Assembly: GCA_947626905.1 (NCBI GenBank)
Contig: CANQUE010000003.1
Coordinates: 17,660 to 81,659 of the forward strand
Reading direction: 5' to 3'
Source of the DNA: an uncultured Oscillospiraceae bacterium
Lineage (GTDB): Bacteria; Bacillota; Clostridia; Oscillospirales; Oscillospiraceae
Length of the DNA: 64,000 nt
In this document: piece by piece, positions 5,707 through 19,775 of the stretch
Position numbering within the stretch: position 1 is the stretch's first letter
Layout of the letters: each line of letters starts with the position of its first letter
Translations under genes and position numbers: made by a program
Notes under the pieces: model-generated
Seen by the model: only the letters and a program-made list of their open reading frames with translations
What the model was told of the DNA's origin: nothing
The model's database searches: none

Positions 5707-5741
5707 TATATGAAGCTATATGAGCTTATATGAAGTTACAT
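5707..5741 (+). repeat. left-arm short direct repeats (putative integrase arm-type sites)
   Basis: CTTATATGAAG CTATATGAG CTTATATGAAG TTACAT. The same ATATGAAG(N)TA(T/C)AT motif recurs at 13974-14072 in the same orientation. Confidence 0.6.
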
Positions 5742-5821: not shown

Positions 5822-5912
5822 GGAGCGGTATCGAAGTGGACACAACGAGCTCGACTCGAAATCGAGTTGCCGGTGAAACGGCACGTGGGTTCGAATCCCA
5901 CCCGCTCCGCCA
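5822..5912 (+). tRNA. tRNA-Ser (anticodon CGA), class II with long variable arm, CCA encoded
   Basis: Acceptor GGAGCGG/CCGCTCC. Anticodon stem CTCGA/TCGAG with loop CTCGAAA. Variable arm GCCG-GTGAAA-CGGC. T arm GTGGG-TTCGAAT-CCCAC. Discriminator G, then CCA. Confidence 0.9.
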
Positions 5913-6207: not shown

Positions 6208-6321
6208 CCATATTCACCCAGAAGACCTGAGAACACACGCTTTCAGGTCTTCTTTTTATCCACTCACAGCAGCAGAACATCCTATAATGGACACAAACTT
6301 AATAAGGAGGATGACCCCATG
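6208..6321 (+). repeat. integrase leader (terminator-like hairpin, TATAAT box, RBS), copy A of a ~113-bp direct repeat
   Basis: CCATATTCACCCAGAAGACCTGA...TCAGGTCTTCTTTTT...CCTATAATGGACACAAACTTAATAAGGAGGATGACCCCATGAG aligns with only a few mismatches to 14149-14260. Confidence 0.85.
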
Positions 6322-7500
6322 AGCATTCAACCGCGTCAAGTAAAGAACAAGAAGGATGAAAACCACGTCCCCACCCACAAGCCCGGCACCGTATACGACG
6401 TCTTCATCTCATACAAAGATGCCAACGGCAACAGGCACACCTATGGCAAACGGGGCTTTGCCACCAAAAGTCTTGCTATGCAGCATGAGGCAGAGATGTT
6501 CGTCACATTGAGCCGCAGCGGCTCCCACAAGTATTACAATGCGACCCTTGGTGAGTATTTGCAGGACTGGCTGGCAGAATATGCCTACAATTATCTGGCC
6601 CCATCTACATATCAGGGGTATCTAAGTTGCTTCCGGCAGCACATCATGCCGTCCATCGGATCGGTCAAGTTGCGCAAGCTGGCAGCCTCTGATATAGATA
6701 AGGTCTGTACGGAGATGATGCGCCAAGGTTATGCTGTTTCCTCTCAAAGGCACGCATACCGTGTGTTGAGCGTTTCCCTGGAACACGCGAGAAAGCACGG
6801 GTATATCGATGTGAACCCCGTGCGAAACAGCTTTGCAAGATTCAAAATCACGAAGAGGACAGATGAGCCATATTCGATCTCCGAAGTACGGAAACTCCTG
6901 GACGTCGTTTCCGATCCACAGATGCATTTTATCGTCATGCTGGCTGCACTATACGGTCTGCGCCGCGGCGAGATATATGGTCTTCAGATACAGGACATCG
7001 ATTTGGAAAACCATTGCTTCACCGTGTCACAGCAGCTGGCTTGCTGTGCGGAACGAAAGCGTACCGGCAGCATACTCGCCCCGCTCAAGACAAGTACCTC
7101 CTATCGCACATTGCCTATCACCGACCTTACCTATCCCTGTTTCGCCAAGCAGGTAGAAATGCGCGGCGGGAGCAACGCCGTGGGCCTCCTTATAACCCAG
7201 CCGGATGGACAGCCATATAGCGTTTCTCACTTATCGGAGCACTTTCCTCTACTGCTTGAGTCGCTGCAATTTCGGAAGATCCGCTTTCATGACCTGCGCC
7301 GGTCTGCCGCCACCAATATGCATGAGCTTACCGGCGATTATCTGACCATTGGGGCTATCCTCGGCCACTCCTTCAAAGGCATCACCGTTGCACTGGACAT
7401 CCCCGTTTGCGTCCCCGAGATCACCGGCCAGTATATAACCCTCAAGGATTCCCGAAAGCAGTATGTTCTGGAAATGTATCACAAGGCAGTATATAGCTGA
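6319..7500 (+). CDS. int: tyrosine integrase (phage-integrase family) with N-terminal AP2-like arm-binding domain
   Basis: 393 aa. Catalytic set visible: LRRGE (Arg), LKTSTSYRTLP (Lys), FHDLRRS (His-x-x-Arg), LGHS (His), TGQYIT (Tyr). The N-terminal segment GTVYDVFISYKDANGNRHTYGKRGFATK is typical of Tn916/ICE-type Int. AAGGAGG RBS. Confidence 0.9.
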   Translation: MSIQPRQVKNKKDENHVPTHKPGTVYDVFISYKDANGNRHTYGKRGFATKSLAMQHEAEMFVTLSRSGSHKYYNATLGEYLQDWLAEYAYNYLAPSTYQGYLSCFRQHIMPSIGSVKLRKLAASDIDKVCTEMMRQGYAVSSQRHAYRVLSVSLEHARKHGYIDVNPVRNSFARFKITKRTDEPYSISEVRKLLDVVSDPQMHFIVMLAALYGLRRGEIYGLQIQDIDLENHCFTVSQQLACCAERKRTGSILAPLKTSTSYRTLPITDLTYPCFAKQVEMRGGSNAVGLLITQPDGQPYSVSHLSEHFPLLLESLQFRKIRFHDLRRSAATNMHELTGDYLTIGAILGHSFKGITVALDIPVCVPEITGQYITLKDSRKQYVLEMYHKAVYS

Positions 7501-7546
7501 CACCCATTCGGTCCCATACGACGAATGCCCAAATTTAACTTTAATA

Positions 7547-7593
7547 TTGACATTTAACATCTGTTAAGTTAATATAGTATTAACCAAAGTTAA
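7547..7593 (+). promoter_or_regulatory. promoter with two palindromic operator-like sites upstream of the AbiE-like pair
   Basis: TTGACA (7547-7552), 17 nt, TAATAT (7570-7575). TTAAC-N4-GTTAA occurs at 7554-7567 (inside the spacer) and again at 7580-7593, centres 26 bp apart. Confidence 0.6.
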
Positions 7594-7606
7594 ATGGGGC
7601 GCTGTC

Positions 7607-8569
7607 ATGGATTATATCACGCAGACATTGGGCATTCCTGTCCACCGCAGCAAATGGGAACGAGCAGCGGAGCTTCCTTTTTACCTGACCAATTCCTATT
7701 CTCTTGAAAGCGCGGAATTGGGGGATCGCCACGCCCTCTTCCTGACGCCTGTTGGTAAATTGGGAACAATCGGCACCATCAAAAAGCACATCGCCCGGCT
7801 GGAGACTATCTGTCCCTGGCCGGTCGTGCTGGAACTGCCCGCCCTCAGCCGTCAGCGGAAGAGTTCCCTCATCGCGGAAAGGATCCCCTTTGTGGTGCCC
7901 GGAAAGCAGCTCTATCTTCCTTTTCTTGGCGCCGTCCTCTCCGAAAGAAATGACGTTGAAGCTGCCCCAGAGCCGATAGATAAACTGCTTCCTTCCGCGC
8001 AGATGCTGCTTTTCGCATTTATCCTTGGCGGCAATAAACTGATCTTTCTCAGCGATATGACAAAGCGATTCCACTGCGCCGCGATGACCATGTCCCGCGC
8101 CGCGCAGCAGCTTGTCCAGGCGGGGCTGTTGGACCGGAGTACACAAGGAGTGCAGATCCTTCTCAGCTCAGACTTAACGCCATGGGCGCTATATCAGACC
8201 GCTCTTCCCCATCTGATATCCCCGGTGCGAAAGACTGTGTACATTGACCGTGCCGAACTTCCGAAAGATGTGTTTTCCGCCGGACTGAGCGCTCTTTCCG
8301 AACAGGCGTTTATCAATCCCCCATTTGTGGAGTCCTGGGGAACTGTCGCGCAAGAGAAATCGTTCACTACGAAGAGCATGCTTTTGGTAGACACCACAAA
8401 GCAATGTGCCGTCGAGTTTTGGAAATACGATCCCAGGCTGGTCAGCGGAAGCCTATACGTTGACCCCCTCTCTCTCGCTGCCAGTTTGAGCGATACAAGT
8501 GATGAGCGCGTAGAACAGTCTGTAGATACTCTTCTCAGGGAGGCATTGCAGAATGGTCACCGGATTTGA
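7607..8569 (+). CDS. putative winged-helix regulator; candidate AbiEi-like antitoxin by position (function uncertain)
   Basis: 320-aa ORF whose stop overlaps the start of the nucleotidyltransferase gene by 17 nt. The central segment LSDMTKRFHCAAMTMSRAAQQLVQAGLLDR looks like wHTH. CDS confidence is high; the functional call is weak. Confidence 0.5.
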   Translation: MDYITQTLGIPVHRSKWERAAELPFYLTNSYSLESAELGDRHALFLTPVGKLGTIGTIKKHIARLETICPWPVVLELPALSRQRKSSLIAERIPFVVPGKQLYLPFLGAVLSERNDVEAAPEPIDKLLPSAQMLLFAFILGGNKLIFLSDMTKRFHCAAMTMSRAAQQLVQAGLLDRSTQGVQILLSSDLTPWALYQTALPHLISPVRKTVYIDRAELPKDVFSAGLSALSEQAFINPPFVESWGTVAQEKSFTTKSMLLVDTTKQCAVEFWKYDPRLVSGSLYVDPLSLAASLSDTSDERVEQSVDTLLREALQNGHRI

Positions 8570-9308
8570 GAGTTTTAAAGAATGGTTCGCTGGCTACAGC
8601 GACCAATTTGCCATCATCGGCGGCACGGCATGCGACCTTCTGATGAGCGAGGAAGGCGAAGACTTCCGGGCAACCAAAGATATCGATATGGTCCTCATCG
8701 TGGAGAGCCTTACGCCGGAATTTGGACTGCATTTCTGGCAATACGTCAAAGCCGCCGATTATAAGCATCGGCGCAGCAGCAACGGACAGCCGCAGTATTA
8801 CCGCTTTACCCACCCCCGCGGCCGGGAGTACCCCTATATGATCGAGCTGTTCAGCCGCAAGCCGGACGCTATTTCTCTGCCGGAGGATGCCGTGCTGACC
8901 CCAATGCCGCTGGATGATGACCTGTCCAGTTTGTCCGCCATTTTGCTGGATGACGATTATTATCAGCTTCTTCTCACCGGCAAACACGTTGTGGATGGCG
9001 TCCCCATTGTAGGCGCGGAACAACTCATCCTGTTCAAAGCAAAAGCATGGCTCGATCTCACCCGTCGTAGGAATGCAGGCGAAGCCATAGATTCCCGTGA
9101 TATCCGCAAGCACAAAAACGACGTCTTCCGCTTATCGCTTCTTCTGACGCTAACATCAAAACTCGCCGTTCCGCAAAGCATCTACCAGGATCTTCAGCGC
9201 TTCCTTGCTGCGATGGAGACTGAGTCAATCGATCTGAAGCATCTGGGGATACATATGGATAAGGACACGATTCTTAACCTGTTGAAAAATACATATTCAC
9301 AAGAATGA
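8553..9308 (+). CDS. nucleotidyltransferase, AbiEii/AbiGii (DUF1814)-like toxin candidate
   Basis: 251 aa. The N-terminal IIGGTACDLL...RATKDIDMVLIV matches the GG(S/T)A...DxD NTase signature. C-terminal RDIRKHKNDVFRL. GGGAGG RBS. Assigned from motif memory only. Confidence 0.6.
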   Translation: MVTGFESFKEWFAGYSDQFAIIGGTACDLLMSEEGEDFRATKDIDMVLIVESLTPEFGLHFWQYVKAADYKHRRSSNGQPQYYRFTHPRGREYPYMIELFSRKPDAISLPEDAVLTPMPLDDDLSSLSAILLDDDYYQLLLTGKHVVDGVPIVGAEQLILFKAKAWLDLTRRRNAGEAIDSRDIRKHKNDVFRLSLLLTLTSKLAVPQSIYQDLQRFLAAMETESIDLKHLGIHMDKDTILNLLKNTYSQE

Positions 9309-9367
9309 CCGACAAACCAATTATATTCTAGATTTATAAATCACATTTTAGAAGAAAGGGACATCAA

Positions 9368-12300
9368 ATGAGTCTAGAGGCAGGCGGACGAGCAGACAAA
9401 GGGGGAAATAGATATGAGAACCGCTTTTTAGCTAAACTTTGGATAGATCTAATCCGGGAGCGTCTTACCTCTATAGAAGTAGAACCCCTTGGTGACGAAG
9501 GCCGGGGAGTGGAATTCATCACAACCACTGCAGATGGTAAGCGCGAGTACTATCAATGCAAATCATCCAATGGTATAGAAAATTACTGGCGCCCCAGCGA
9601 TTTGGGTGCCTACTCTGTTTTCCAAATTGCAAAAATACATCTTCAAAGCGGAAGCGACTGTATGTATCACTTTGTTTCACCGCTCCCTTATGATGAATTG
9701 GATAGTTTATGCGACCGTGCTCGAACAGCTTCCGACCTTGACAACTTCCTAAGTTTTCAGTTGTCCAATGACAAATTAAGGAATTGGTGGAACAAATGTA
9801 AACAGTATTTTTGTGAAGATGACGCGCAAACACTATCTCTTCTTTCACGGTGTCACTTTGATCAAATTCCCGATAATCACGAGCGAATATATGAATTAGA
9901 AACGCTAATCGAACTTTTGTTCGTTAAAGATAATTCAGGAACTCCCGCTTCCATTCGCATAGAATTAGAAGCATTCGCAAATGATGAGAAACGCTGGGGC
10001 AGACCAATCAACGCCGGAGAAGTATTGGCCTATCTGGAGGAGCACGGATTCCAGCAGCGCCTTCTTGTCCACGACGAGCGAACTCTCACCCAAATCAAAA
10101 CTCTCAATCAGGCGTATGTTGAAAGCTTTCACCCTATTGGCTCCTCGCTCTTTCACCGCTGCGAGGCTGACAAAATAATGGAATGCATTCACGACGGTAA
10201 GTCAGCCTTGATTCTGGGAAAAGCCGGTTCAGGAAAAAGCGGCTGTATCCATGAAGTAATTGAACAACTTGAAGCCGAGGGGATCACTCACTTGGTCCTT
10301 CCTCTTGATAAGCGTCAGCCAACCGGATTTGCTGATCATTACGGGAGATCCCTTGGACTGTTATGCTCCCCTGTGCTGTGTCTACATAGTCTTTCAGGCG
10401 GACGCCCATGTGTTTTGATCTTCGATCAACTGGATGCCTTACACTGGACAAACAGTTCTACCTCTACATCTCTAAGCATCTGCAAAGAAATGATCGATCA
10501 GGTGGAGCATTTGAATCACCTGGAAAACGGAAAGATCCGTTGTATTTTTGTCGTTCGATCATTTGACTATCAAACTGACCCGACCATACATAGGATGTTT
10601 GAACCTACTGATGGTTCCCGGTCAAGTTGGGAAAAAATCGAAGTCGATCTTCTCTCGTCTGAGGATGTTCACAAGCTAATTGGAGACTCCTATTATTCAC
10701 TATCCCCTAGACTTCATGCCTTACTTCAAACGCCCTCCAATCTCTACATCTGGGAAAAACTGTCCCCCAGTTCCAAACCCTTGATCGAAAACCTCCGACA
10801 GTTAATGGAAACTTGGTGGTCACAGGTAAGAAACCGTTGTATTGAAAATAGTCTGAACGCGCAGAGAATTGATGACTGCCGCAATCGGATCGTATCTATA
10901 ATGCAACAACGAGAAGTGTTGTCTCTCCCTGACATGCTGTTTCAAGACGAACATAATGAAATAGATATCCTAAGATCATACGGCGTTTTACAAAAGGCCG
11001 GAAATAGCATTTCCTTTGTCCACCAAAGCCTGTTCGATTTCTTTTCTGTCAAATCATATATTGACAGCATTTATGACAAATCCATGCATCTTCCGGATGT
11101 GTTCTGTGATACGGACAGGCAGACGCCAGACGTTCGCTATCAGTTCCTGATGCTGTTACAGTATTTGGTCGATGCTGATACTGCGACTTTTATATCCGAG
11201 GCAAAGTATAGTTTGGCATCTTCAAATATCCGTTACTATTTCAAATGTTGTATTTTTGAGGTTATTGGTCAGAAAGCATCTCTTGCTGAAGTATTTTGGC
11301 CAACAATCGACGCGTATTATAATGATCCAGAATGGAACCAGTATATTGTCCACATGGTTCTCAGCAGTCACTCAGAATTTGTCCAGCTATTTTGCCGATC
11401 TCATCCTGAACATGAATGGCATGAAGAAACTGGATGTAATATACTTCGTTCTGTTATCTGTCAAGAACCGAACCTCGCACTGGACATCATATATAATTAT
11501 GGCCCCGATAAATTTGATGATAATACTCTATATTCGATCCTTTGCTCTATATCGCCTGATGATTCTGAAAAAGCCGCTGTTTTACGACTTAAGCTATTAG
11601 AGAAAAATCATCTTTTATTTCTTAATAATTTTGAGTTGGAAAAAACAATAGAGTCAGGATCTATCTGGGCCGTCCCCATGCTTAGACTTATAATCGAAAT
11701 GGACCCATCTGTTAGACAAAACGTGCGGTTTATCACGCTTGAGCATACAAACTTATTTGTAGAGAAGCATGCTAGGCAGATAGTCGGCCAGTTGCTTGAC
11801 CCTCTCATTCAGACAGTTACATCTGAAACTGCACAAAACAAATATAGTACTGCCTGGAACACAAATTATGATGATGCCACCATTGAACAAGCTCTTGTTC
11901 ATATTGTTCAGGCTGCACTTTCGCGGGTCGCATCAAACAACCCTGTCGAATTTCTCCAATACCTAAACCACCAAAGCTCTAATTCGTCTATAGAGAGATA
12001 TCTCCGGATCCACGCGGCAGAAAACTTGCCTACCGACTATTCTGATCAGGTAATAATATGGCTTATTTCCGATTTTGACAATAGGGCTTTTGAGAGATTT
12101 AGCAGTGAATCGACTTCGCTATCCTGCTGCCAACGCATAATCAGACGATTCTCTCCATATTGTAGCGTCGATACCTTCAAGCAACTAGAAAAACTTCTAT
12201 GCCAGTGGTCTCCTCCTGCTGATCATATGCGTGCTATACTCCAGTGGCGAATCGATTCTCTGCATAAAGCAGGCAATAGGGATTGCTATATTGCTTTCTG

Positions 12301-13843
12301 GGGCAATCTTCAAAACATCCTATTGCCGGCGCTTGATCCGACGAGAATCTCAAGTTACACAATGCGTTTAATCGCTGTTCTAGATCGTCGGTTCACAGAT
12401 GGAAATCATATGTTTGACCTTTCTCCGCAAATTGAGTCTCATGTAGTTACTTCGCCCGTTGACGCTCATGTCGATCGTCTAAGTGATAGAAGCTGGCTTA
12501 AACTCATTGCCGACATGAGTTTCTCCACCCCACATATAAGGAAACATGATTGGCACACTGGTACAGAGTCTTCACCTCAAATGTTTTCTCAGAGTCTGGC
12601 CTATGCAGCAAAAAAAGAGCCTGTTCGCTTTGCCAATTTGGCGTTGCTCTTTCCAGATGGAACTGCAGAGTCCTTTATTGATGCGATACTTACCGGCCTT
12701 CAATCATCAGATGTCCCCCTTGACTTGACGTGTGACATCCTGCGGCGGTTCTGTCAGAACCCATCCCGAAATATCGCCATTTCATATGCACATGTTCTAG
12801 AGCACCGCTCTCAGGAAGCATGGCCAATCGATATTCTGAATGGATTAATTGATATTGCTGCGCATCATGCCGATCCACTTCCAAAGGAGTTGCCTATATA
12901 TAAAATTGATGAAGAGACCGTAGACTGTGGCACTTTACGTCAGTGCGCAATCAACTGTGCAAGAGGCTATGCGTTATTCGCAATCAGTGACATTTTGTGG
13001 GAACACCCGGAACTGTTTGAAACGTTTCGCGAAGTTACTGCATCTGCCGTTGAAGATGAAAATCCCGCCGTTCTGTTTTCTGCCATGCGTTGCCTTGCCC
13101 CTTGGTACAATGTTGATAGAGAATTCTCAAAGGCTCTATTCCATCGGCTGTTGGAACGGGATATTCGCGTTTTGGGTGCCTATGACGCATGGCAGATCCT
13201 ATCCCGGTGTTATAGCGATAATCCATCATACTACTGTGACAAATTGCTGTCGGCGTTCCGCTCTGAAATCAAAGACCTGAGTGAACATGCACTGGAGATG
13301 ATGACAATAATCGCAACTACAAATAGTCAAATGCTCGATGTTTTGCTTTCGCTGCACTTAAGCAAACAGCAGGCACAGGTTGTTTGCCGTCAATCCGTCC
13401 GTTGCTTCAAATACGATGACAGGCGTATGCAAAGCCGAGTCATTTTATGCCATATCATAGATATATGTGATGATCTGCCGCAACTGGATCAACTATTTTA
13501 TCAGAAACTCATCGATCCTCAAAGAGATAAAGAATTCCTGCTCAAGCTGGTTTCCCGTGGCAATATGAGGCGCATGGCATATTATTTTATAAAATATCTG
13601 AAGGAATACGATGGGGATATTGTCGCCTATACAGACGTAATACTCGAATTCGTAAAAGCACTATTTCTTCCAGGAACGACATACTATGACTTTGATGAGC
13701 TTATCATATGCATCGCCCGGTTGTTTCATCAGGGAAAGGAAGATATACAGATTCGCAGGGTATGCCTCGATATGTGGGATATCATATATCATAACCGTCC
13801 TTGGGCAATCAAGCCATTTGCAGAATTGATTGATCATCTATAA
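9368..13843 (+). CDS. 1491-aa PD-(D/E)xK-like nuclease / P-loop NTPase / long helical-repeat protein (STAND/Avs-like defence candidate)
   Basis: N-terminus GGRADKGGNRYENRF...IEVEPLGDEGRGVEF...YYQCK. Walker A GKAGSGKS (aa 284-291, nt 10217-10240). Walker B VLIFDQLD (aa 349-356, nt 10412-10435). About 1100 aa of helical, repeat-like C-terminus without TM segments. AT-rich codon usage unlike the host. Confidence 0.8.
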   Translation: MSLEAGGRADKGGNRYENRFLAKLWIDLIRERLTSIEVEPLGDEGRGVEFITTTADGKREYYQCKSSNGIENYWRPSDLGAYSVFQIAKIHLQSGSDCMYHFVSPLPYDELDSLCDRARTASDLDNFLSFQLSNDKLRNWWNKCKQYFCEDDAQTLSLLSRCHFDQIPDNHERIYELETLIELLFVKDNSGTPASIRIELEAFANDEKRWGRPINAGEVLAYLEEHGFQQRLLVHDERTLTQIKTLNQAYVESFHPIGSSLFHRCEADKIMECIHDGKSALILGKAGSGKSGCIHEVIEQLEAEGITHLVLPLDKRQPTGFADHYGRSLGLLCSPVLCLHSLSGGRPCVLIFDQLDALHWTNSSTSTSLSICKEMIDQVEHLNHLENGKIRCIFVVRSFDYQTDPTIHRMFEPTDGSRSSWEKIEVDLLSSEDVHKLIGDSYYSLSPRLHALLQTPSNLYIWEKLSPSSKPLIENLRQLMETWWSQVRNRCIENSLNAQRIDDCRNRIVSIMQQREVLSLPDMLFQDEHNEIDILRSYGVLQKAGNSISFVHQSLFDFFSVKSYIDSIYDKSMHLPDVFCDTDRQTPDVRYQFLMLLQYLVDADTATFISEAKYSLASSNIRYYFKCCIFEVIGQKASLAEVFWPTIDAYYNDPEWNQYIVHMVLSSHSEFVQLFCRSHPEHEWHEETGCNILRSVICQEPNLALDIIYNYGPDKFDDNTLYSILCSISPDDSEKAAVLRLKLLEKNHLLFLNNFELEKTIESGSIWAVPMLRLIIEMDPSVRQNVRFITLEHTNLFVEKHARQIVGQLLDPLIQTVTSETAQNKYSTAWNTNYDDATIEQALVHIVQAALSRVASNNPVEFLQYLNHQSSNSSIERYLRIHAAENLPTDYSDQVIIWLISDFDNRAFERFSSESTSLSCCQRIIRRFSPYCSVDTFKQLEKLLCQWSPPADHMRAILQWRIDSLHKAGNRDCYIAFWGNLQNILLPALDPTRISSYTMRLIAVLDRRFTDGNHMFDLSPQIESHVVTSPVDAHVDRLSDRSWLKLIADMSFSTPHIRKHDWHTGTESSPQMFSQSLAYAAKKEPVRFANLALLFPDGTAESFIDAILTGLQSSDVPLDLTCDILRRFCQNPSRNIAISYAHVLEHRSQEAWPIDILNGLIDIAAHHADPLPKELPIYKIDEETVDCGTLRQCAINCARGYALFAISDILWEHPELFETFREVTASAVEDENPAVLFSAMRCLAPWYNVDREFSKALFHRLLERDIRVLGAYDAWQILSRCYSDNPSYYCDKLLSAFRSEIKDLSEHALEMMTIIATTNSQMLDVLLSLHLSKQQAQVVCRQSVRCFKYDDRRMQSRVILCHIIDICDDLPQLDQLFYQKLIDPQRDKEFLLKLVSRGNMRRMAYYFIKYLKEYDGDIVAYTDVILEFVKALFLPGTTYYDFDELIICIARLFHQGKEDIQIRRVCLDMWDIIYHNRPWAIKPFAELIDHL

Positions 13844-13973: not shown

Positions 13974-14072
13974 AATATGAAGTTACATAGCGATATATGA
14001 AGATATATCATTTTCTTCTTTTTGCGGGCATTTTGCCATGAGCGGGATATGAAGATATATGAGGATATATCG
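13974..14072 (+). repeat. right-arm short direct repeats (putative integrase arm-type sites)
   Basis: AATATGAAGTTACAT (13974-13988), GATATATGAAGATATATCA (13992-14010), GGATATGAAGATATATGAGGATATATCG (14045-14072). Same motif and orientation as 5707-5741. Confidence 0.6.
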
Positions 14073-14094: not shown

Positions 14095-14151
14095 CTCGAA
14101 ATGCGGTTGTCCATTCTGGGCACGTGGGTTCGAATCCCACCGCTTCCGCCA
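14095..14151 (+). pseudogene. 3' half of the disrupted tRNA-Ser(CGA) gene (anticodon loop to CCA)
   Basis: CTCGAAATGCGG TTGTCCATTCTGGGCAC GTGGGTTCGAATCCCAC CGCTTCC G CCA. The variable arm GTCCA/TGGGC and the T arm are intact. The acceptor strand matches 5651-5657, not the tRNA at 5822. Confidence 0.75.
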
Positions 14152-14260
14152 TATTCACCCAGAAGACCTGAGAGCACATGCTTTCAGGTCTTTTTTATCC
14201 TGACACAGCAGCAGAAAACTCTATAATGGACACAAACTTATTAAGGAGGATGACCCCATA
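14149..14260 (+). repeat. copy B of the integrase-leader repeat; start codon decayed (ATA) and no integrase ORF follows
   Basis: Aligns to 6208-6321 through the hairpin, the TATAAT box and the AAGGAGG RBS. ATG is replaced by ATA at 14258-14260 and similarity ends a few nt later. Confidence 0.8.
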
Positions 14261-14433
14261 AGTACTACAAAAGCAGACGTTTTCCAAACGGCTTCGATAA
14301 GGCTTGGATCACAAGAGCACGGGACAGTTTACTGTTCCGTGCTCTTGCTTGAGATAGCTGGAAGCGGCCGGCGTAGTCCCCAAAATGCTTTTATCTTTAT
14401 TTTGCCAGCCGCGCCCTTTGATGTGTCAAGTCA

Positions 14434-14955
14434 TCATTCCGCTGAAGACCAGTCAATGTAATGGTGCCGGATATCGCTGAGAACCTTTTCCAGTTGATAT
14501 ACACTCAAATCCAATGCCCTGGAAGCCTCCTGTTTACCATACCCGGACATCCGAAGGAGGACGATCTGCCTCTCATCATCGGTCAGGGACGATATGAACT
14601 CGGCCACTGACAGCCTGCTGAAATCGGAAAGATATGAGCGTAAGATACCATATCCATTGACGCCATCATCTTCTGCGCCGGTGATGATCGCATCCAGCGA
14701 GAAATGTCCAAACCGCATGGAAGGCGTCTTTAGGTTCAGCCTGTCCATATACTCGGAAAAATAGCCCCAGTAGTCTTTGAAGAAATGGCCGGTCGTCAGC
14801 GGCATGGAGCGAAGCATCACAACAAAAAACAGCAGCGCCTCGGCGACCCTGTCCTCATATTCCAGGTTGAGCCATCTCCCCTGGCAAAGGACTCTTATAA
14901 TTGGAAGGGCGGCCGAAACGATCCTGTCCTCTGCCGTTTCACCTGCGCTTGCCAT
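14434..14955 (-). CDS. small sigma-70-like protein (region 4 HTH), mobile-element regulator type
   Basis: 173 aa. The C-terminus LTDDERQIVLLRMSGYGKQEASRALDLSVYQLEKVLSDIR is a sigma region-4/LuxR-like HTH. Overlaps the upstream gene by 17 nt. Confidence 0.7.
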   Translation of the reverse strand: MASAGETAEDRIVSAALPIIRVLCQGRWLNLEYEDRVAEALLFFVVMLRSMPLTTGHFFKDYWGYFSEYMDRLNLKTPSMRFGHFSLDAIITGAEDDGVNGYGILRSYLSDFSRLSVAEFISSLTDDERQIVLLRMSGYGKQEASRALDLSVYQLEKVLSDIRHHYIDWSSAE

Positions 14956-15367
14956 CCCTCAGCTCCTTTAGGATGCTCTCCTCTGCAGACTTGCTGATCT
15001 TCCGGGGATTTTTGGCGGGCGGGCGTCTTTTCATCGTCGGGGTCTGAAGTTCAGCGATCCAGACGCCACCCTCCCTTCGCATGATGTACCGAGCGGGAAG
15101 AATGATGCCTGCGGATACGATGTGTTTGATCAGTTCTGGCCTGGTCACCGCGCCGCTCTTGGGAAGCGTATACCCGGATGCAGGGTCCTCCATGACACAA
15201 ACAGTCTTGCCATCCGGCAGTATGCCGATCTTGATGTTGGGCGGCAGTGCCTCCCGGGCCGGGCGATTGAACGTAAAGCCGCCGGTTTCCGACACGTTGA
15301 TCACCATCTCTGGCGGTTTCGGGCTCAAATCGAACCAAACAAATTCTTCTAAATTAATCCTATCCAT
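14939..15367 (-). CDS. hypothetical protein co-transcribed with the sigma-like gene
   Basis: 142-aa ORF with ATG start and a basic C-terminal tail. No family recognised. Confidence 0.6.
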   Translation of the reverse strand: MDRINLEEFVWFDLSPKPPEMVINVSETGGFTFNRPAREALPPNIKIGILPDGKTVCVMEDPASGYTLPKSGAVTRPELIKHIVSAGIILPARYIMRREGGVWIAELQTPTMKRRPPAKNPRKISKSAEESILKELRDGKRR

Positions 15368-15593
15368 TATTATTTCCCTTTCTTTGGGGACCGGAAGAAT
15401 TATAGCGGAAAATGGCTGGGAGATAAAGGTGCGCCAATTTTTGATTCTTCCGTGTCAAGCACCTTGAGCGACACCTATTTTTTAAGTTTGCCGTTCTAAC
15501 GCCCGTTTTGCGAGCGGGATCCGGACCAAAAACTTTTAAACCTTTTCACTCCTCGTGACGATATAATAGATGTGCGCACAAAGGAGGCTTTCG

Positions 15594-16121
15594 ATGTTAG
15601 AGCTACATAGAAAAAGTACCGTCGACCCAAATTTTCTGATACGCGAATACGGCCATGAGCTCTATCGGTTCTGCCGCCGCATCACCTTTAACAGGGAGGA
15701 TGGAGAGGATCTCTTTCAAAACACCTTCCTTATCATTATGGCTAAAGCCGAAGACGCCGCACCCCGTTCAGATATCCGGCAGCTCTTGTATTCCACCGCT
15801 CTGTCCTGCTGGAAGGATCAAAAGCGAAAGTACGCCCGCCGCGAGAGGATCGCCCCGCGCATACCTTTTGAGGAAAACGCGGACGCGCTAGGCGGCGATG
15901 CGGAAGAAGAATTGCTGAACAGAGAAGAAAAACTGCTCATACGGAGCATCGTTTCTTCCCTGCCGGAGCAATACCGTTTGCCGACTGTGCTGTACTATGG
16001 CGCCGAGATGAAACTCAAAGACATCGCAGAAACACTGTCACTGCCGGTCGGGACGGTGAAGAACCGTCTTTTCACCGCCCGACAAATGGTGAAGGAGGAA
16101 TTATTGAAATATGAAACATAA
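15594..16121 (+). CDS. ECF-type RNA polymerase sigma factor
   Basis: 175 aa from ATG 15594, with an AAAGGAGG RBS and TATAAT at 15562-15567. Region 2 YRFCRRITFNREDGEDLFQNTFL; region 4 LKDIAETLSLPVGTVKNRLFTARQ. Confidence 0.85.
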   Translation: MLELHRKSTVDPNFLIREYGHELYRFCRRITFNREDGEDLFQNTFLIIMAKAEDAAPRSDIRQLLYSTALSCWKDQKRKYARRERIAPRIPFEENADALGGDAEEELLNREEKLLIRSIVSSLPEQYRLPTVLYYGAEMKLKDIAETLSLPVGTVKNRLFTARQMVKEELLKYET

Positions 16122-17745
16122 CTATGACGACTATGACTATATCGACCGGATGCTTCGCCGTGCCTATAATGAGGATCATGTCCCTACAAGCGCATTTTTG
16201 GCACATGTGGAAGCGGTCATGAGGGAAGCGGACCGTCTGCCGAAAAACAGCTCTCCCCGCCCCGCAGGCGTCCACGCCGCTCCCCACCGGAAGCGCTATG
16301 CCCGCAGGGCTCTCGCTGCCACCATCATAGCGGCCACGAGCATACTGCTGGGCGTGACGGCCTATGCCGTATACCAGGCCCGGGTACAGGACTATCTGCT
16401 GCCGGAGAGCGCAGCGGCCGATGACGCCGGCGGCCAGGTGACCGCCGCTCCCCGGGCCAACCTGTCCATGGTGGGCTATCAGGGCACGCCGGAATATGAG
16501 GCCTATGTGGCGTGGGAAACCTATCTGGCGAACTGCGATCCGGTAGACTATACCGCCATGGGAGTGGACGATATCTGGCACGAAACGCCGGACAACTATG
16601 CGTTTATCTATGGCGCTGTCACAGCGGAGCAGGGGCAGAGGCTGGAGAAGATCATGACCCAATACGGTCTGAAGCCCCACACCGACATAGCCACCGTCTA
16701 TGACATACAAAAACTCTATGACGCCCTGGGGACGAAGGGCTTCTTCCTCCGACCCCTGTCCGACGACGGCAGCGGCTATGTCTATGACGACGGCACCTTC
16801 AAGCTGGAGAGCCTTACGATGGATATGGCCGATGGGACAGAATGGGGATTCGGCATATTCGTCAGCGCCAAGGGCTCCTTTTCCCGTATCCGCGCCTTTC
16901 AGGACGGGGACTATGAGGAGTGGAGCTATGCCGCCGCCGGAAACCAGGCCGTAGAGCTGGCCGCCAGCGGCGACAGGGCCCTCATCCTGGCGGAAACCGA
17001 GGGGGCTTACATCTATATCGACATGGAGAGCGGCCCCAACGCCGCCATTACCCGGGAGCAACTGGAAACCTTCGCCAACAACGTGGACTTCGCCGCTTTC
17101 GCCAAGGTCTATGGCAATGAAAAAGTCGATCTGACGGACAAGATAGAAACGCTGAAGGCGGCAGCCGAGGAATACGAAACCGTGACGGTGCCGGAGCAGA
17201 GCCGCCGGGAGCTGCGGGCATACTGGGACGATTTCACCGGCTATGTGGCGGATGAGCTAGGTGCCACGCTGACGATCACGCCCCCCGAGGGCTTCCTGCA
17301 GGTGTGGACTGACGCCGTTTACGTCAGCGGCGAGGCCATGCTCGCCCCCGGTTTCACCACGGAGGAAGATGTGTCCCTGCCTTATGCGCTTCTGGAGAAC
17401 ATCTATGTGCCCGACGATGTGGCCGGCAGCCTGATGGACGAGTATGGCATGTACGACCCGCCCGAAGATCCGGACTTCGACGCCTTGTATTTCAGCTACG
17501 AGCGGCTGGAGGACGCGGCGGGCCAGTTCGCCGTCGCCCTGGCCAAGGCGGAGCAAACCGTCGCCGTGGCCGGACAGAGGGGTATCATCACCACCGGCTC
17601 TGACTGGGGCGGCGGTGACAGGCCGGAGGGGCTCACCTCCCTCACCTGGTATGACCCGGCCCGGGATATGATTCTGGCGATACGCTCCAACTTCCTGACG
17701 GTGGATGACCTGGTCGCCCTGGCGGACACCGTCACAGCGGCGTGA
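16111..17745 (+). CDS. putative anti-sigma factor: single-pass membrane protein with a large extracytoplasmic domain
   Basis: The start overlaps the sigma gene stop by 11 nt. One TM segment (LAATIIAATSILLGVTAYAVY) after a short cytoplasmic N-terminus. GAAGGAGG RBS. Confidence 0.7.
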   Translation: MKHNYDDYDYIDRMLRRAYNEDHVPTSAFLAHVEAVMREADRLPKNSSPRPAGVHAAPHRKRYARRALAATIIAATSILLGVTAYAVYQARVQDYLLPESAAADDAGGQVTAAPRANLSMVGYQGTPEYEAYVAWETYLANCDPVDYTAMGVDDIWHETPDNYAFIYGAVTAEQGQRLEKIMTQYGLKPHTDIATVYDIQKLYDALGTKGFFLRPLSDDGSGYVYDDGTFKLESLTMDMADGTEWGFGIFVSAKGSFSRIRAFQDGDYEEWSYAAAGNQAVELAASGDRALILAETEGAYIYIDMESGPNAAITREQLETFANNVDFAAFAKVYGNEKVDLTDKIETLKAAAEEYETVTVPEQSRRELRAYWDDFTGYVADELGATLTITPPEGFLQVWTDAVYVSGEAMLAPGFTTEEDVSLPYALLENIYVPDDVAGSLMDEYGMYDPPEDPDFDALYFSYERLEDAAGQFAVALAKAEQTVAVAGQRGIITTGSDWGGGDRPEGLTSLTWYDPARDMILAIRSNFLTVDDLVALADTVTAA

Positions 17746-17773
17746 GCATATTGAAAACAAGAGATACTAGCAG

Positions 17774-17806
17774 AAAGGAACGACGGCATTTTGCCGTCGT
17801 TCCTTT
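17774..17806. terminator. strong hairpin terminator
   Basis: AAAGGAACGACGGCA-TT-TGCCGTCGTTCCTTT, a perfect 15-bp stem. Confidence 0.75.
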
Positions 17807-17811
17807 CATTG

Positions 17812-17918
17812 ATGTACACTTTTAAACTATGGCCGAAGCGTTCCACCGCCATATCGATTTGACCGCAGTAGGCCAGAATATGCTCCAAAATACGCAGATC
17901 ACGCTCTGGTACGTTCAT
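17812..17918 (-). pseudogene. truncated HepT (DUF86)-like toxin remnant, first ~35 codons only
   Basis: MNVPERDLRILEHILAYCGQIDMAVERFGHSLKVY starts 20 nt before the MntA stop, the typical overlap. The HepT-like sequence then stops at the terminator hairpin. The open frame beyond (track ORF 17496-18143) is antisense of the anti-sigma gene. Confidence 0.55.
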
Positions 17919-18198
17919 AAAGCAATACCTCATCCGGGCGGATCGTTTCAAGGAATCTCTGATCCATGCCTGCCGTGGAAACAAGATCGACCGGCATTTT
18001 GAGCGCGTCCTCCAAATCACCAAGCAGATACGCAAATTGCAGGCCGTGAATAGCGCCCTTGTCAATACGCAGATCAATATCGCTGCCGCTGTGCATATCA
18101 CCCCGCGCGTAGGAACCAAAGAGATACACACGATCTGCTCCATAACGCTGCGCCAGAGGACTGACTATGGCTCGCAATTCTGAAATCGTATATGGCAT
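17899..18198 (-). CDS. minimal nucleotidyltransferase, MntA-type antitoxin
   Basis: 99 aa. RVYLFGSYARGDMHSGSDIDLRID is the GS-x9-DxD pol-beta NTase signature. GGAGG RBS. Confidence 0.85.
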   Translation of the reverse strand: MPYTISELRAIVSPLAQRYGADRVYLFGSYARGDMHSGSDIDLRIDKGAIHGLQFAYLLGDLEDALKMPVDLVSTAGMDQRFLETIRPDEVLLYERTRA

Positions 18199-18549
18199 AG
18201 CAGCACCTCCTTCGAATTTCTACGGATAGTATAACATATCCTCGCCAGAAGTAAAAGGGCGTTTTATCGCCATACCACCTGGATTTCCATTATATATGAA
18301 CAAAGGCTATTATGATCATCATATTTCGCGCCCTTGTTGAAATTCCGCAACTATTTGTAACCTCCATAATGGTTTGAATTACCCTGTGCTCCAACCATTC
18401 TGGCTGATTACAAACGCCGAGGGAAACAGCTTCTTTGCGAAGTGTTTCCCTTGCGGGATGGACTTGTTTTATGGATCTTGGAGTGAGATCCGTCCCCACG
18501 GCGGGCCGCGCCAAAAAAGCCCTCCTGACGCCGGAGAGCATCCCGGCGC

Positions 18550-19428: not shown

Positions 19429-19775
19429 GCCGTGTTCTCCGTTCCCCGCAAAAATGCAGCTCGTCCGTGACCTAAAACCCTATAGTACTCTTATATTTTA
19501 CCAAATTTCCGGTTCTGATAATATGATTTTATTGCTGGAATGCACAGATATTAGAGCAAGGATTGCAATGTTCTACAGCAACCAGCACCATGTTCATGTT
19601 TGTGCATATCCGATATAATTATGCCATCGTTACCATTTTGAAGTGTAGCTTATCACTAACGCGACACACTGCCGGGGGAAATGCACGTATTTGACCGCAG
19701 CGCGGTCAACCATGGGCGCGCCGGAGGCGTCCGGCCCGGGATGGGACAAGCACGGCGGGAGAGGAGGAGCCACGG

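What the first reader, a model, noticed from the sequence alone, without database searches (positions are those of the whole stretch)
9368..13843. 1491-aa nuclease / P-loop NTPase / helical-repeat protein on an integrative island: candidate single-gene STAND (Avs-like) antiphage system
Seen in the sequence: one uninterrupted AT-rich ORF (25/60 G+C in 11161-11220) in an otherwise GC-rich genome. It is the last cargo gene of an integrase-bearing island.
- The N-terminal ~200 aa contain GGRADKGGNRYENRF...IEVEPLGDEGRGVEF-x11-YYQCK. This is an acidic cluster followed about 20 residues later by QxK, the layout of Mrr/Cap4(DUF4297)-like PD-(D/E)xK nucleases. I assigned this from motif memory, not from a search.
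- aa 284-291 GKAGSGKS is a Walker A motif and aa 349-356 VLIFDQLD is a Walker B motif.
- The remaining ~1100 aa have no TM segments and look like all-helical HEAT/TPR-type repeats.

Established knowledge: effector domain, then STAND/AAA-type NTPase, then a large repeat sensor is the architecture of Avs/AVAST and related antiviral ATPases. Such genes cluster with Abi/TA modules on mobile islands.

Inference: this is a phage-sensing, DNA-cleaving defence protein. Whether it falls in a described family or defines a new one cannot be decided from the sequence alone.
Basis: partly seen in the sequence, partly recalled or inferred. Interest (0 to 1): 0.85.

Follow-up and report, generated by a model that had tools for sequence, protein, structure and literature searches.

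The report
Avs7-like antiphage STAND nuclease gene
This 1491-residue gene on a tRNA-inserted island of an Oscillibacter-like gut bacterium encodes a one-protein phage sensor (DNA-cutting domain, ATP switch, large helical sensor) that is a distant, untested relative of the recently solved capsid-sensing Avs7 protein, so it is a real defence-type gene but of a known kind.

Summary
ORF 9368-13843 (+) encodes 1491 aa, has 43% G+C in a 63% genome, and is the last gene of an 8.2-kb tRNA-Ser/integrase island with attL and attR. A profile of 115 full-length homologues hits the solved SeAvs7 structure (PDB 9N00/9N01/9YIX; Lee et al., Nature 2026) at E 2.7e-23. Profile-profile alignment is co-linear over residues 30-1460 (E 3.7e-31, 17% identity). 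Taken separately, the Cap4 nuclease (P 6e-10), the NTPase (P 7e-22) and the last ~480 aa of the sensor (P 9e-11) are homologous to SeAvs7. The first ~340 aa of the sensor are not (P 0.59). All SeAvs7 nucleotide-site residues and one capsid-contact residue (N1204 = N1196) are invariant. The EF-Tu interface is not conserved. The sensor family is large (2,178 clusters at 50% identity), mostly from Bacillota where named, sits next to recombinases and defence genes, and shows signs of effector swapping. Its NTPase clade already has a seed sequence in the published STAND census. Verdict: a new, uncharacterised member of a known kind (Avs, Avs7-related). The trigger is unknown, with the major capsid protein as the best guess. 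Interest is moderate.

The parts
5822..5912 (+). tRNA-Ser(CGA). Its 3' 33 nt (5880-5912) form the attL core of the island.
   Evidence: ARAGORN, Rfam tRNA at 55 bits, direct repeat D5.
6319..7500 (+). Tyrosine integrase of the island (393 aa).
   Evidence: Pfam Phage_integrase, Phage_int_SAM_3 and Arm-DNA-bind_4.
7607..8569 (+). 320-aa protein with a weak winged-helix HTH. It is a possible AbiEi-like antitoxin or regulator. Its end overlaps the start of the next gene by 17 nt.
   Evidence: Pfam MarR at E 9.8e-4, below cut-off. No PDB relative. A 320-aa gene sits at the same position in the related island L005; their sequences were not compared.
8553..9308 (+). 251-aa nucleotidyltransferase-fold protein, AbiEii-like (weak).
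   Evidence: Pfam AbiEii at E 2e-3, below cut-off. The motifs IIGGTACDLL and TKDIDMVL are visible in the translation.
9296..9324 (+). Promoter-like site 44 nt upstream of the ATG. This is a consensus match only.
   Evidence: TTCACA-17-AATTAT, 9 of 12.
9368..10117 (+). Cap4-type PD-(D/E)xK nuclease effector domain (aa 1-250). Key residues are E17, E39, E49 and Q63-C64-K65.
   Evidence: hhalign against the SeAvs7 Cap4 domain, P 6.1e-10. Invariant residues. AF2 alpha-beta-beta-beta-alpha-beta core. Family member P0403 hits Pfam Cap4_nuclease in register at E 1.3e-3.
10151..11227 (+). STAND NTPase (nucleotide-binding, helical and winged-helix domains; aa 262-620). Key residues are K290/S291, D353/D356, R397 and H552.
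   Evidence: hhalign against SeAvs7, P 6.7e-22. Foldseek matches to Avs3 at 4.5e-15, Avs4 at 6e-10, and NLRC4, NLRP3 and Apaf-1. PADLOC PDC-M54A at 1.4e-17. Residue map.
11228..12307 (+). First ~360 aa of the helical sensor (aa 621-980). The ~340 aa tested separately (640-980) show no detectable relative outside the family.
   Evidence: AF2 model is all-helical with pLDDT ~90. hhalign against the equivalent SeAvs7 region gives P 0.59, no better than the reversed control.
12308..13840 (+). C-terminal ~510 aa of the sensor (aa 981-1491). It is homologous to the C-terminal part of the SeAvs7 sensor and contains the invariant N1196.
   Evidence: hhalign probability 97%, P 9e-11, over 443 columns. 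Reversed control P 0.22. Swapping the two sensor halves against each other gave P >= 0.056. N1196 aligns with the SeAvs7 capsid-contact residue N1204, and both are (near-)invariant.
14119..14151 (+). attR: a 33-nt repeat of the tRNA-Ser 3' end that closes the island.
   Evidence: 91% identity to 5880-5912.

Best explanation
**What it is.** The gene encodes a single-protein antiviral STAND (Avs) receptor. It belongs to an uncharacterised family, mostly from Bacillota where members are named, that is distantly related to Avs7.

**Proposed mechanism, by homology with SeAvs7, SeAvs3 and EcAvs4.**
1. In uninfected cells the protein is an ADP-bound, autoinhibited monomer. The winged-helix His552 holds the ADP.
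2. During infection the ~870-aa helical sensor clamps around a folded phage protein.
3. This releases the closed NTPase and ADP is exchanged for ATP. The residues involved are K290/S291, D353 and R397.
4. The NTPase domains oligomerise, probably into a tetramer.
5. Oligomerisation brings the N-terminal Cap4-type PD-(D/E)xK domains together (E39, E49, Q63-x-K65) into an active dsDNA endonuclease. Indiscriminate DNA cutting then aborts the infection.

**What is shown here.** The domain architecture, the homology to SeAvs7 of the nuclease, the NTPase and the sensor's C-terminal part, the conservation of all nucleotide-site residues, and the mobile-element and defence context.

**What is inferred.** The defence function, the oligomeric state and the DNA-cleavage output.

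**The trigger is a guess.** The major capsid protein is most likely (about 0.3-0.35), because the homologous sensor part keeps the SeAvs7 capsid-contact Asn. EF-Tu recruitment is not expected.

The gene works alone. It arrived on a tRNA-Ser integrative island and differs in base composition even from the rest of that island.
For: **Homology to SeAvs7**
- The family profile hits PDB 9n00/9n01/9yix (SeAvs7) at E 2.7e-23.
- hhalign against 101 Avs7 sequences is co-linear over query 30-1460 and SeAvs7 29-1487, with E 3.7e-31.
- By region: nuclease P 6.1e-10, NTPase P 6.7e-22, sensor C-terminal part P 9e-11. Reversed-sequence controls give P >= 0.2.

**Residue map**
- SeAvs7 K291, T292, D358, R395 and H545 correspond to K290, S291, D353, R397 and H552. 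All are (near-)invariant in both families.
- N1204 corresponds to N1196, which is invariant in our family and near-invariant in Avs7.

**Structure**
- The AF2 model of aa 1-620 has pLDDT 88.9. Its best PDB folds are Avs3, Avs4, NLRC4, NLRP3 and Apaf-1, and Cap4 (6vm6) also matches.
- The sensor model has pLDDT 87 and is all-helical.

**Family properties**
- Purifying selection is evident: 31 invariant columns across 115 sequences at 26-87% identity.
- Effector swapping on the same sensor is suggested by a Trypsin_2-like N-terminus in P0314 and a different N-terminal module in P0294, P0346 and P0385.

**Context**
- The window has a tRNA-integrase island with an AbiE-like gene pair.
- Homologues sit next to integrases or serine recombinases, a MobL relaxase with a methylase and Vsr, HTH+AbiEii, a KAP NTPase and an AEP-TOTE helicase, and RloB+AAA_21 with reverse transcriptases.

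**Published mechanism.** The SeAvs7 mechanism comes from Lee et al. 2026.
Against: - There is no experiment on any member of this family.
- The first ~340 aa of the sensor show no similarity to SeAvs7 (P 0.59), so the ligand-binding cavity is only half comparable.
- Two of the three SeAvs7 capsid-contact residues named in the paper (Y1289, N1361) are not conserved here. The paper reports that mutating three of these contact residues (N1204, Y1289, N1361) did not abolish defence, so N1196 is weak evidence for a capsid trigger.
- The EF-Tu interface residues Q999, D1003, H1048 and D1059 are not conserved.
- Overall identity to SeAvs7 is 17%.
- The defence-context evidence comes from seven neighbourhoods read by eye, not from an enrichment statistic. 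One homologue, in Vagococcus, sits after a ribosomal-protein operon with only small unknown genes around it.
- No PADLOC model of a validated system matches. Only the NTPase part of the candidate PDC-M54A matches.
Confidence: 0.72

Rival explanations
1. The machine is the same (an Avs-type STAND nuclease) but the trigger differs. The sensor recognises a phage protein other than the major capsid protein, because its first ~340 aa are unrelated to the Avs7 sensor and reshape the binding cavity. This rival differs from the best explanation only in the trigger, so the two confidence values overlap and should not be summed.
For: - The first part of the sensor has no detectable similarity to SeAvs7 (P 0.59).
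- Y1289 and N1361 are not conserved.
- The NTPase is only 27% identical to the SeAvs7 seed but 40% identical to a separate census seed.
- Lee et al. show that unrelated Avs sensors have evolved for at least 14 different phage proteins, and that similar targets are reached by dissimilar sensors.
Against: - The C-terminal ~480 aa of the sensor are homologous and co-linear with SeAvs7 (P 9e-11).
- The capsid-contact Asn is invariant in both families.
- The sensor length is nearly identical (~870 aa).
- Lee et al. report that Avs7-type sensors keep capsid specificity even when fused to unrelated effectors such as Dsr1.
Confidence: 0.4
2. The protein is one component of a multi-gene system, like the PADLOC candidate PDC-M54, and needs a partner encoded nearby. 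On this reading the adjacent 320-aa and 251-aa genes are partners rather than an independent toxin-antitoxin pair.
For: - The best PADLOC hit is PDC-M54A, the A protein of a multi-gene candidate (E 1.4e-17).
- In the window and in L005 the gene follows a 320-aa gene.
Against: - The PDC-M54A match covers only ~300 of 1621 profile positions, all within the NTPase.
- Neighbours of homologues differ completely between genomes, so no partner is conserved.
- SeAvs7 works as a single gene.
- The Avs gene has a different base composition from its island neighbours.
Confidence: 0.08
3. The protein is not an antiphage protein. It could be a STAND-type regulator, or a selfish nuclease module that stabilises the island (an addiction system) or competes with other mobile elements.
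For: - STAND clades switch between defence and non-defence roles (Lee et al.).
- The gene is always on or beside mobile elements.
- No phenotype is known.
Against: - There is no DNA-binding output domain typical of STAND regulators.
- The effector is a Cap4-type nuclease, and inactivating that domain in SeAvs7 abolishes both defence and toxicity.
- The effector appears to swap for a protease-like domain on the same sensor.
- Defence genes lie in several neighbourhoods.
Confidence: 0.07
4. The window copy is a decaying or inactive gene.
For: - It lies next to a decayed second island (start codon ATG changed to ATA at 14149-14262).
- Its foreign base composition suggests recent arrival.
Against: - The 4476-nt ORF is uninterrupted.
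- Every family-invariant residue is present.
- The identical protein is found on 7 independent metagenome contigs.
- It aligns full length with homologues.
Confidence: 0.03

Closest known systems
Avs7 (SeAvs7, WP_079981830.1; PDB 9N00/9N01/9YIX; Lee et al., Nature 2026)
   Same: - The size is similar (1491 vs 1523 aa), and the order of parts is the same: Cap4 PD-(D/E)xK nuclease, STAND NTPase, ~870-aa helical sensor.
- The profile-profile alignment is co-linear over almost the whole length (E 3.7e-31).
- The nucleotide-site residues K, S/T, D, R and H are conserved.
- The last ~480 aa of the sensor are homologous, including N1204 = N1196.
- The nuclease shares the QCK motif.
   Different: - Overall identity is only 17%.
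- The first ~340 aa of the sensor are not detectably related.
- The EF-Tu interface residues, R367, Y1289 and N1361 are not conserved.
- The NTPase is closer to a different census seed (WP_105177080.1, 40% identity) than to SeAvs7 (27%).
- Named members are mostly Bacillota, whereas the SeAvs7 relatives recovered here with an organism name are almost all Gamma- or Betaproteobacteria.
- SeAvs7 relatives hit the PADLOC LmuA (Cap4) model and this family does not.
- Nothing here has been tested experimentally.
Avs3 / Avs4 (SeAvs3, EcAvs4; PDB 8DGC, 8DGF)
   Same: - They are the best structural matches in the PDB library for aa 1-620 (E 4.5e-15 and 6e-10).
- They share the same logic: an N-terminal nuclease, a STAND NTPase and a helical sensor.
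- They form tetramers on binding a phage protein.
   Different: - There is no sequence-level match. PADLOC returned no validated-system model at E <= 1, which I take to include its AVAST models.
- The sensors are unrelated.
- Their triggers are terminase and portal.
PADLOC candidate PDC-M54A
   Same: It is the best PADLOC hit (E 1.4e-17). The related NTPase domain covers profile positions 310-612.
   Different: - Only about one fifth of the 1621-position profile matches.
- The effector and sensor do not match, apart from a marginal hit to a third model (PDLC04701, E 0.017, aa 1199-1260).
- PDC-M54 is a multi-gene candidate, whereas no partner gene is conserved here.
Cap4 (CBASS effector, PDB 6VM6) and LmuA nuclease domains
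   Same: - The PD-(D/E)xK fold has an N-terminal G-rich/YE helix and a QxK strand.
- 6vm6 appears among the Foldseek matches (E 2e-5).
- Family member P0403 hits Pfam Cap4_nuclease in register.
   Different: - Here the nuclease is fused to a STAND NTPase rather than to a SAVED domain or an SMC-type partner.
- The window protein itself does not reach the Pfam or PADLOC Cap4 models.
Dsr1 and other proteins that carry the Avs7-type sensor
   Same: According to Lee et al., the Avs7 sensor is a mobile module fused to many effectors. This sensor family likewise shows alternative N-termini.
   Different: - No SIR2 fusion was seen among the top 150 sensor-family representatives.
- Whether the weaker hits include Dsr1 could not be checked.

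Membership tests
Avs (antiviral STAND) proteins in general | STAND NTPase core: Walker A, Walker B, sensor-1 Arg and a winged-helix His that contacts ADP | tested here: met
   K290/S291, D353/D356, R397 and H552 are invariant in 115 sequences and align with SeAvs7 K291/T292, D358, R395 and H545. Foldseek matches Avs3, Avs4, NLRC4, NLRP3 and Apaf-1.
Avs (antiviral STAND) proteins in general | N-terminal defence-type effector domain | tested here: met
   Cap4-type nuclease: hhalign P 6.1e-10 against the SeAvs7 Cap4 domain. E17, E39 and Q63-C64-K65 are invariant, and E49 is always E or D.
Avs (antiviral STAND) proteins in general | Large (>=400 aa) C-terminal repeat sensor | tested here: met
   The AF2 model of aa 571-1491 is all-helical with pLDDT 87. 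Its Foldseek matches are HEAT/ARM solenoids.
Avs (antiviral STAND) proteins in general | Association with defence islands or mobile elements | tested here: inconclusive
   Six of the seven homologue neighbourhoods examined, and the window's own island, contain recombinases, a relaxase, plasmid-partition genes or known defence genes. One does not. No enrichment statistic was computed.
Avs (antiviral STAND) proteins in general | Phage protection and trigger-dependent cell death | not testable with these tools
   This needs an experiment.
Avs7 | NTPase homologous to that of SeAvs7 and within the Avs7 clades of the published tree | tested here: inconclusive
   Homology is clear (P 6.7e-22). However, the NTPase is 40% identical to a separate census seed (WP_105177080.1) and only 27% identical to the SeAvs7 seed. 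The clade tables are truncated in the held copy.
Avs7 | Avs7-type sensor, C-terminal part (SeAvs7 ~983-1487) | tested here: met
   hhalign on this region alone gives probability 97% and P 9e-11 over 443 co-linear columns. The reversed control gives P 0.22; swapping the two sensor halves against each other gave P >= 0.056.
Avs7 | Avs7-type sensor, first part (SeAvs7 ~650-982) | tested here: not met
   hhalign gives P 0.59, the same as the reversed control. The length is similar (340 vs 333 aa). A fold comparison was not possible because 9N00 is evidently absent from the Foldseek library.
Avs7 | Capsid-contact residues N1204, Y1289 and N1361 | tested here: inconclusive
   N1204 corresponds to N1196, which is invariant in our family and near-invariant in Avs7. 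Y1289 and N1361 align to variable positions. The paper says these residues are individually dispensable.
Avs7 | EF-Tu interface (Q999, D1003, K1044, H1048, D1059) | tested here: not met
   The aligned positions are K/R, A/G, K/R/Q, T/N and A/G, all variable. The paper states that this interface is conserved in only one Avs7 clade, so it does not define the whole family.
Avs7 | Activated by the phage major capsid protein | not testable with these tools
   No multimer prediction or experiment was available.
Avs7 | Listed in the authors' Avs7 tables (S7, S8) | not testable with these tools
   The tables are truncated in the held supplement, and none of the family's own accessions was found in the part that is held.
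Avs1-5 (AVAST models that I expect PADLOC v2 to include; not confirmed from the tool description) | Match to the family profile | tested here: not met
   No AVAST model appears among the PADLOC hits at E <= 1.
PADLOC PDC-M54 | Full-length match to the A protein and presence of the partner gene(s) | tested here: not met
   Only profile positions 310-612 of 1621 match. The neighbouring genes scanned (the integrase, the two upstream island genes and six ORFs downstream of attR) have no PDC-M54 hit.

The most novel reading that the evidence does not exclude
This family is a distinct Avs lineage whose sensor is a mosaic. The C-terminal half is inherited in common with Avs7. The ~340-aa first half is unrelated and has retargeted the receptor, without EF-Tu, to a different phage protein or to a different class of capsid protein. 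If true, it would be a natural example of sensor-lobe exchange as a way for bacterial pattern-recognition receptors to evolve new specificities.
Probability: 0.3. Interest if true: 0.55.

Novelty: new member of a known kind. Interest (0 to 1): 0.38.

Why it matters
**Annotation gap.** The family is large: 2,178 clusters at 50% identity share the sensor. Almost all members are annotated 'hypothetical', and neither Pfam, NCBIfam nor PADLOC v2 recognises them. Standard defence-system annotation of Bacillota and gut-anaerobe genomes therefore misses them. Linking the family to Avs7 gives these genes a testable mechanism and a short list of mutants: K65, K290, D353, R397, H552 and N1196.

**Specificity.** The half-conserved sensor offers a comparative handle on what determines trigger specificity in Avs7-type receptors, and on whether EF-Tu recruitment is a clade-specific add-on.

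**Limits.** It does not change the current picture of bacterial immunity. The architecture and logic are those already established for Avs proteins, and the NTPase clade already has a seed sequence in the published STAND census.

Tried and rejected
**Searches that gave little**
- Direct Pfam and NCBIfam scans of the protein gave only sub-threshold AAA hits.
- Single-sequence phmmer against the PDB found nothing relevant. Only the family profile found SeAvs7.
- Foldseek of the sensor model gave only generic HEAT/ARM solenoids with TM ~0.2. I do not read these as homology.
- SeAvs7 (9N00) does not appear in the Foldseek PDB library even for the NTPase region, so a direct fold comparison of the sensors was impossible.
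- phmmer of the two upstream island proteins against the PDB gave nothing.
- Rfam found only the tRNA.
- Only three loci were found on IMG/VR viral contigs. The one I examined is bordered by a serine recombinase and an IS66 transposase rather than by phage structural genes. I do not call the gene phage-borne.

**Attempts to widen the Avs7 set**
- Searching the protein database with a 603-aa SeAvs7 fragment returned only fragments and shorter proteins (<=1055 aa), none full length. I obtained full-length Avs7 genes from genome loci instead.
- The metagenome scan added 72 more Avs7 sequences, but all came from the same clade at 55-80% identity. The negative result for the first sensor part therefore rests on an Avs7 profile of modest diversity (Neff ~3.9).

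**Authors' membership tables**
- Tables S2 and S4-S8 are truncated in the held supplement, and the Nature version has no held supplements.

**Considered and rejected**
- Membership of PDC-M54: only a partial NTPase match.
- Avs1-5: no hit.
- A pseudogene: the ORF is intact and every invariant residue is present.

Full report
**1. The observation**

The ORF is exactly as described: 9368..13843 on the + strand, ATG start, 1491 codons plus stop. The quoted 25/60 G+C for 11161-11220 is exact. The gene is 43.4% G+C with GC3 of 41%. The chromosome on either side is 63-64%. The three other island genes are 52-54% with GC3 of 60-63%. The gene is therefore compositionally foreign even within its own island.

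All quoted motifs sit at the quoted residues. The one slip is the spacer between VEF and YYQCK, which is 10 residues rather than 11.

The motifs are not chance. The protein database holds 181 homologues. Of the 120 listed, 114 are 1400-1600 aa long and share only 26-87% identity with the window protein. In that alignment G6, G7, R8, D10, K11, G13, N14, E17, E39, Q63, C64, K65, G284, G287, G289, K290, G292, S334, D353, Q354, D356, R397, D400, S537, H552, Q553, Q585, G979, Q982, W1043 and N1196 are invariant.

**2. The island**

tRNA-Ser(CGA) lies at 5822-5912. A tyrosine integrase with an arm-binding domain follows at 6319-7500.

Next come two overlapping genes:
- a 320-aa protein with a weak winged-helix hit;
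- a 251-aa protein with a sub-threshold AbiEii hit. Its translation shows the nucleotidyltransferase motifs IIGGTACDLL and TKDIDMVL.

The large ORF is the last gene. The 33-nt 3' end of the tRNA (5880-5912) recurs at 14119-14151 with 91% identity. The island is therefore about 8.2 kb and is bounded by attL and attR.

The host is an Oscillibacter-like member of the Oscillospiraceae. Its pyruvate:ferredoxin oxidoreductase is 84-87% identical to those of named Oscillibacter genomes. The identical Avs protein occurs on seven metagenome contigs with the same neighbours.

**3. What the protein is**

Library scans of the single sequence are almost blank. Pfam and NCBIfam give sub-threshold AAA hits. 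PADLOC gives a significant but partial match (E 1.4e-17) to the NTPase fifth of the candidate PDC-M54A.

A profile of the family finds one solved relative: PDB 9n00/9n01/9yix at E 2.7e-23. This is Salmonella enterica Avs7 (Lee et al., bioRxiv 10.64898/2026.01.04.697583; Nature 2026, PMC13581612). SeAvs7 is a 1523-aa protein made of a Cap4 nuclease, a STAND NTPase and a bilobed helical sensor. It binds the phage major capsid protein, recruits EF-Tu, exchanges ADP for ATP, tetramerises and cleaves dsDNA.

I rebuilt the SeAvs7 sequence for residues 46-1523 from HMMER alignments. I then collected 28 full-length Avs7 genes from genomes and 72 from metagenomes, and ran profile-profile comparisons against the alignment of the window protein and its 114 homologues.

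| Region (our residues) | hhalign result | Reversed control |
|---|---|---|
| Whole protein | co-linear, query 30-1460 vs SeAvs7 29-1487, probability 99.9%, E 3.7e-31, 17% identity | P 0.68 |
| Nuclease (1-250) | P 6.1e-10 | P 0.20 |
| NTPase (250-620) | P 6.7e-22 | P 0.61 |
| Sensor, last ~480 aa (981-1460 vs 983-1487) | probability 97%, P 9e-11 | P 0.22 |
| Sensor, first ~340 aa (640-980) | P 0.59 | P 0.21 |

The table values come; the 17% identity figure is. An earlier run with fewer Avs7 sequences gave the same pattern. In that run, swapping the two sensor halves against each other gave P >= 0.056. The first ~340 aa of the sensor are indistinguishable from the controls.

**4. Structure**

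An AlphaFold2 model of aa 1-620 is confident (pLDDT 88.9, pTM 0.85). It begins with an alpha-beta-beta-beta-alpha-beta unit, as expected for a PD-(D/E)xK nuclease. E17 lies on the first helix, E39 at the end of strand 1, E49 just before strand 2, and Q63-C64-K65 at the end of strand 3.

Its best PDB matches are Avs3 (8dgc, E 4.5e-15) and Avs4 (8dgf, 6e-10), followed by NLRC4, NLRP3, NLRP9, CED-4 and Apaf-1. Cap4 itself (6vm6) matches at 2e-5.

The model of aa 571-1491 is also confident (pLDDT 87.2) and almost purely helical. It matches only generic solenoids such as importins, CAND1 and SF3b at TM ~0.2.

SeAvs7 does not appear in either Foldseek list, even for the region where sequence homology is certain. 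The library evidently lacks that entry, so the sensors could not be compared by fold.

**5. Functional residues**

- **Nucleotide site.** SeAvs7 K291/T292 (Walker A), D358 (Walker B), R395 (contacts the ATP gamma-phosphate) and H545 (contacts the ADP beta-phosphate) align with K290/S291, D353, R397 and H552. All are invariant or nearly so in both families. The ADP/ATP switch is therefore intact.
- **Capsid contacts.** N1204 aligns with N1196, which is invariant in our family and near-invariant in Avs7. Y1289 and N1361 align with variable positions.
- **EF-Tu interface.** Q999, D1003, H1048 and D1059 are nearly invariant in the proteobacterial Avs7 set but variable here. The paper says this interface is conserved in only one Avs7 clade. 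Its absence therefore argues against EF-Tu use here, not against kinship.
- **R367** is not conserved.

**6. Family size, distribution and modularity**

A sensor-only profile (aa 621-1491, 8 sequences) was searched against 1.84 billion cluster representatives. It finds 2,178 proteins at E <= 1e-3, 1,653 at <= 1e-10 and 766 at <= 1e-30.

Most of the top 150 are ~1500 aa with the sensor starting near residue 622. By motif search, the full-length ones nearly all carry variants of the GG-x-x-(D/E)K-x-G-(N/D)-x-YE ... QCK nuclease signature. One of them, P0403, hits Pfam Cap4_nuclease in register at E 1.3e-3.

A minority have other N-termini:
- P0314 has a Trypsin_2-like domain (E 1.3e-3, positions 1-136 of the 144-position profile);
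- P0294, P0346 and P0385 share a different module with an E...QAKFY motif;
- P0306 has a ~470-aa extension.

These hits are below threshold. The pattern they suggest, one sensor with exchangeable effectors, is what Lee et al. describe for Avs7.

Named members come from Virgibacillus, Vagococcus, Clostridium, Paenibacillus, Cohnella, Desulfitobacterium, Lachnospiraceae and Peptococcaceae. This fits the low G+C of the window gene.

**7. Context of homologues**

- Virgibacillus: between two integrase genes.
- Cohnella and an IMG/VR contig: directly after a serine recombinase.
- A MAG: next to a MobL relaxase, a DNA methylase and Vsr.
- Another MAG: next to ParAB and followed by HTH+DUF6036, an AEP-TOTE/DEAD helicase, HTH+AbiEii and a KAP NTPase.
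- A metagenome scaffold: between RloB+AAA_21, an AEP-TOTE reverse transcriptase, further reverse transcriptases and an AAA+S8 protease pair.
- Vagococcus: after rplM-rpsI, with three small unknown genes.

No neighbour is conserved across these loci, so the gene acts alone. The defence and mobile-element association is clear to the eye, but I did not test it statistically.

**8. Relation to the published census**

Table S1 of Lee et al. lists the NTPase domains of their 656 seed STANDs. SeAvs7 is seed 299. Seed 368 is WP_105177080.1 from Clostridium cagae. It carries this family's motifs (HGKAGxGKSGC, ILDQLDALRWT, NLYIWE) and is 40% identical to the window protein's NTPase (E 3e-48). The SeAvs7 seed is only 27% identical (E 0.096).

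The NTPase clade was therefore already in the census, represented by a variant with a shorter N-terminal domain. I could not read which clade, which sensor cluster or which Avs number the authors gave it, because the tables are truncated.

**9. Verdict**

The protein is an Avs-type, single-gene STAND receptor with a Cap4 nuclease effector.

It is not a member of Avs1-5, and it is not PDC-M54. It is a distant relative of Avs7. Three of its four parts are demonstrably homologous. The first part of the sensor is not, and the EF-Tu interface is absent. I therefore file it as 'works like Avs7; membership of Avs7 proper undecided'.

The most likely mechanism is phage-protein binding, then ADP/ATP exchange, then oligomerisation, then Cap4 dsDNA cleavage, then abortive infection (confidence about 0.7). 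The capsid protein is the best single guess for the trigger (about 0.3-0.35).

Novelty is 'new member of a known kind'. Interest is moderate. A specialist would not be surprised by the architecture. The family is, however, large, unannotated and untested, and its half-conserved sensor is a useful comparison point for Avs7.

Noticed in passing
window 14149-14262 (compare 6208-6323): Immediately after attR there is a decayed copy (89-94% identity) of the integrase's promoter, 5' UTR and first codons, with the start codon changed from ATG to ATA. It looks like the remnant of a second island that once sat in tandem at the same tRNA. The region 14152-19500 is 54% G+C, compared with 63% for the genome.
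   Followed up: partly
window 5708-5741 and 13975-14070: The 14-nt motif ATATGAAGWTAYAT occurs six times in the window (0.05 expected by chance). It is found only just upstream of tRNA-Ser (2 copies) and just upstream of the attR tRNA fragment (4 copies). The right end aligns like a degenerate copy of the whole tRNA locus. The motifs could be arm-type integrase binding sites or part of the tRNA promoter.
   Followed up: partly
window 6319-13843: The island is compositionally mosaic. The integrase and the two AbiE-like genes have GC3 of 60-63%, while the Avs gene has GC3 of 41%. This suggests the Avs gene was added to the island from a low-GC donor.
   Followed up: partly
window 14434-15367 (- strand); L005 15733-16666: A 173-aa plus 142-aa overlapping gene pair lies downstream of the island. 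The 173-aa protein has a weak sigma-70 region-4 HTH. A gene pair of the same sizes and arrangement sits downstream of the related Avs island in another genome (the P0003 locus); their sequences were not compared. Function is unknown.
   Followed up: no
window 17899-18198 (- strand): A 99-aa NTP_transf_2/Pol-beta nucleotidyltransferase gene. It is possibly the MNT half of a HEPN-MNT toxin-antitoxin pair, and it lies inside the putative older island.
   Followed up: no
window 46263-47621 (- strand): A radical SAM/SPASM peptide-maturase-like gene (NCBIfam TIGR04463 family, E 1.8e-42, below that model's cut-off). It suggests a RiPP biosynthesis locus.
   Followed up: no
proteins P0314, P0294, P0346, P0385 and P0306 (sensor-family representatives): The same sensor and NTPase are found behind other N-terminal domains: a Trypsin_2-like domain, an unassigned module with an E...QAKFY motif, and a ~470-aa extension with a second P-loop. 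These are candidate alternative effectors.
   Followed up: partly
L049 2922-4964 (- strand), IMG/VR contig: A second, unrelated STAND-like ATPase (679 aa, weak nSTAND3 and nSTAND6 hits) lies about 3 kb upstream of the Avs homologue, together with an IS66 transposase and a serine recombinase.
   Followed up: no
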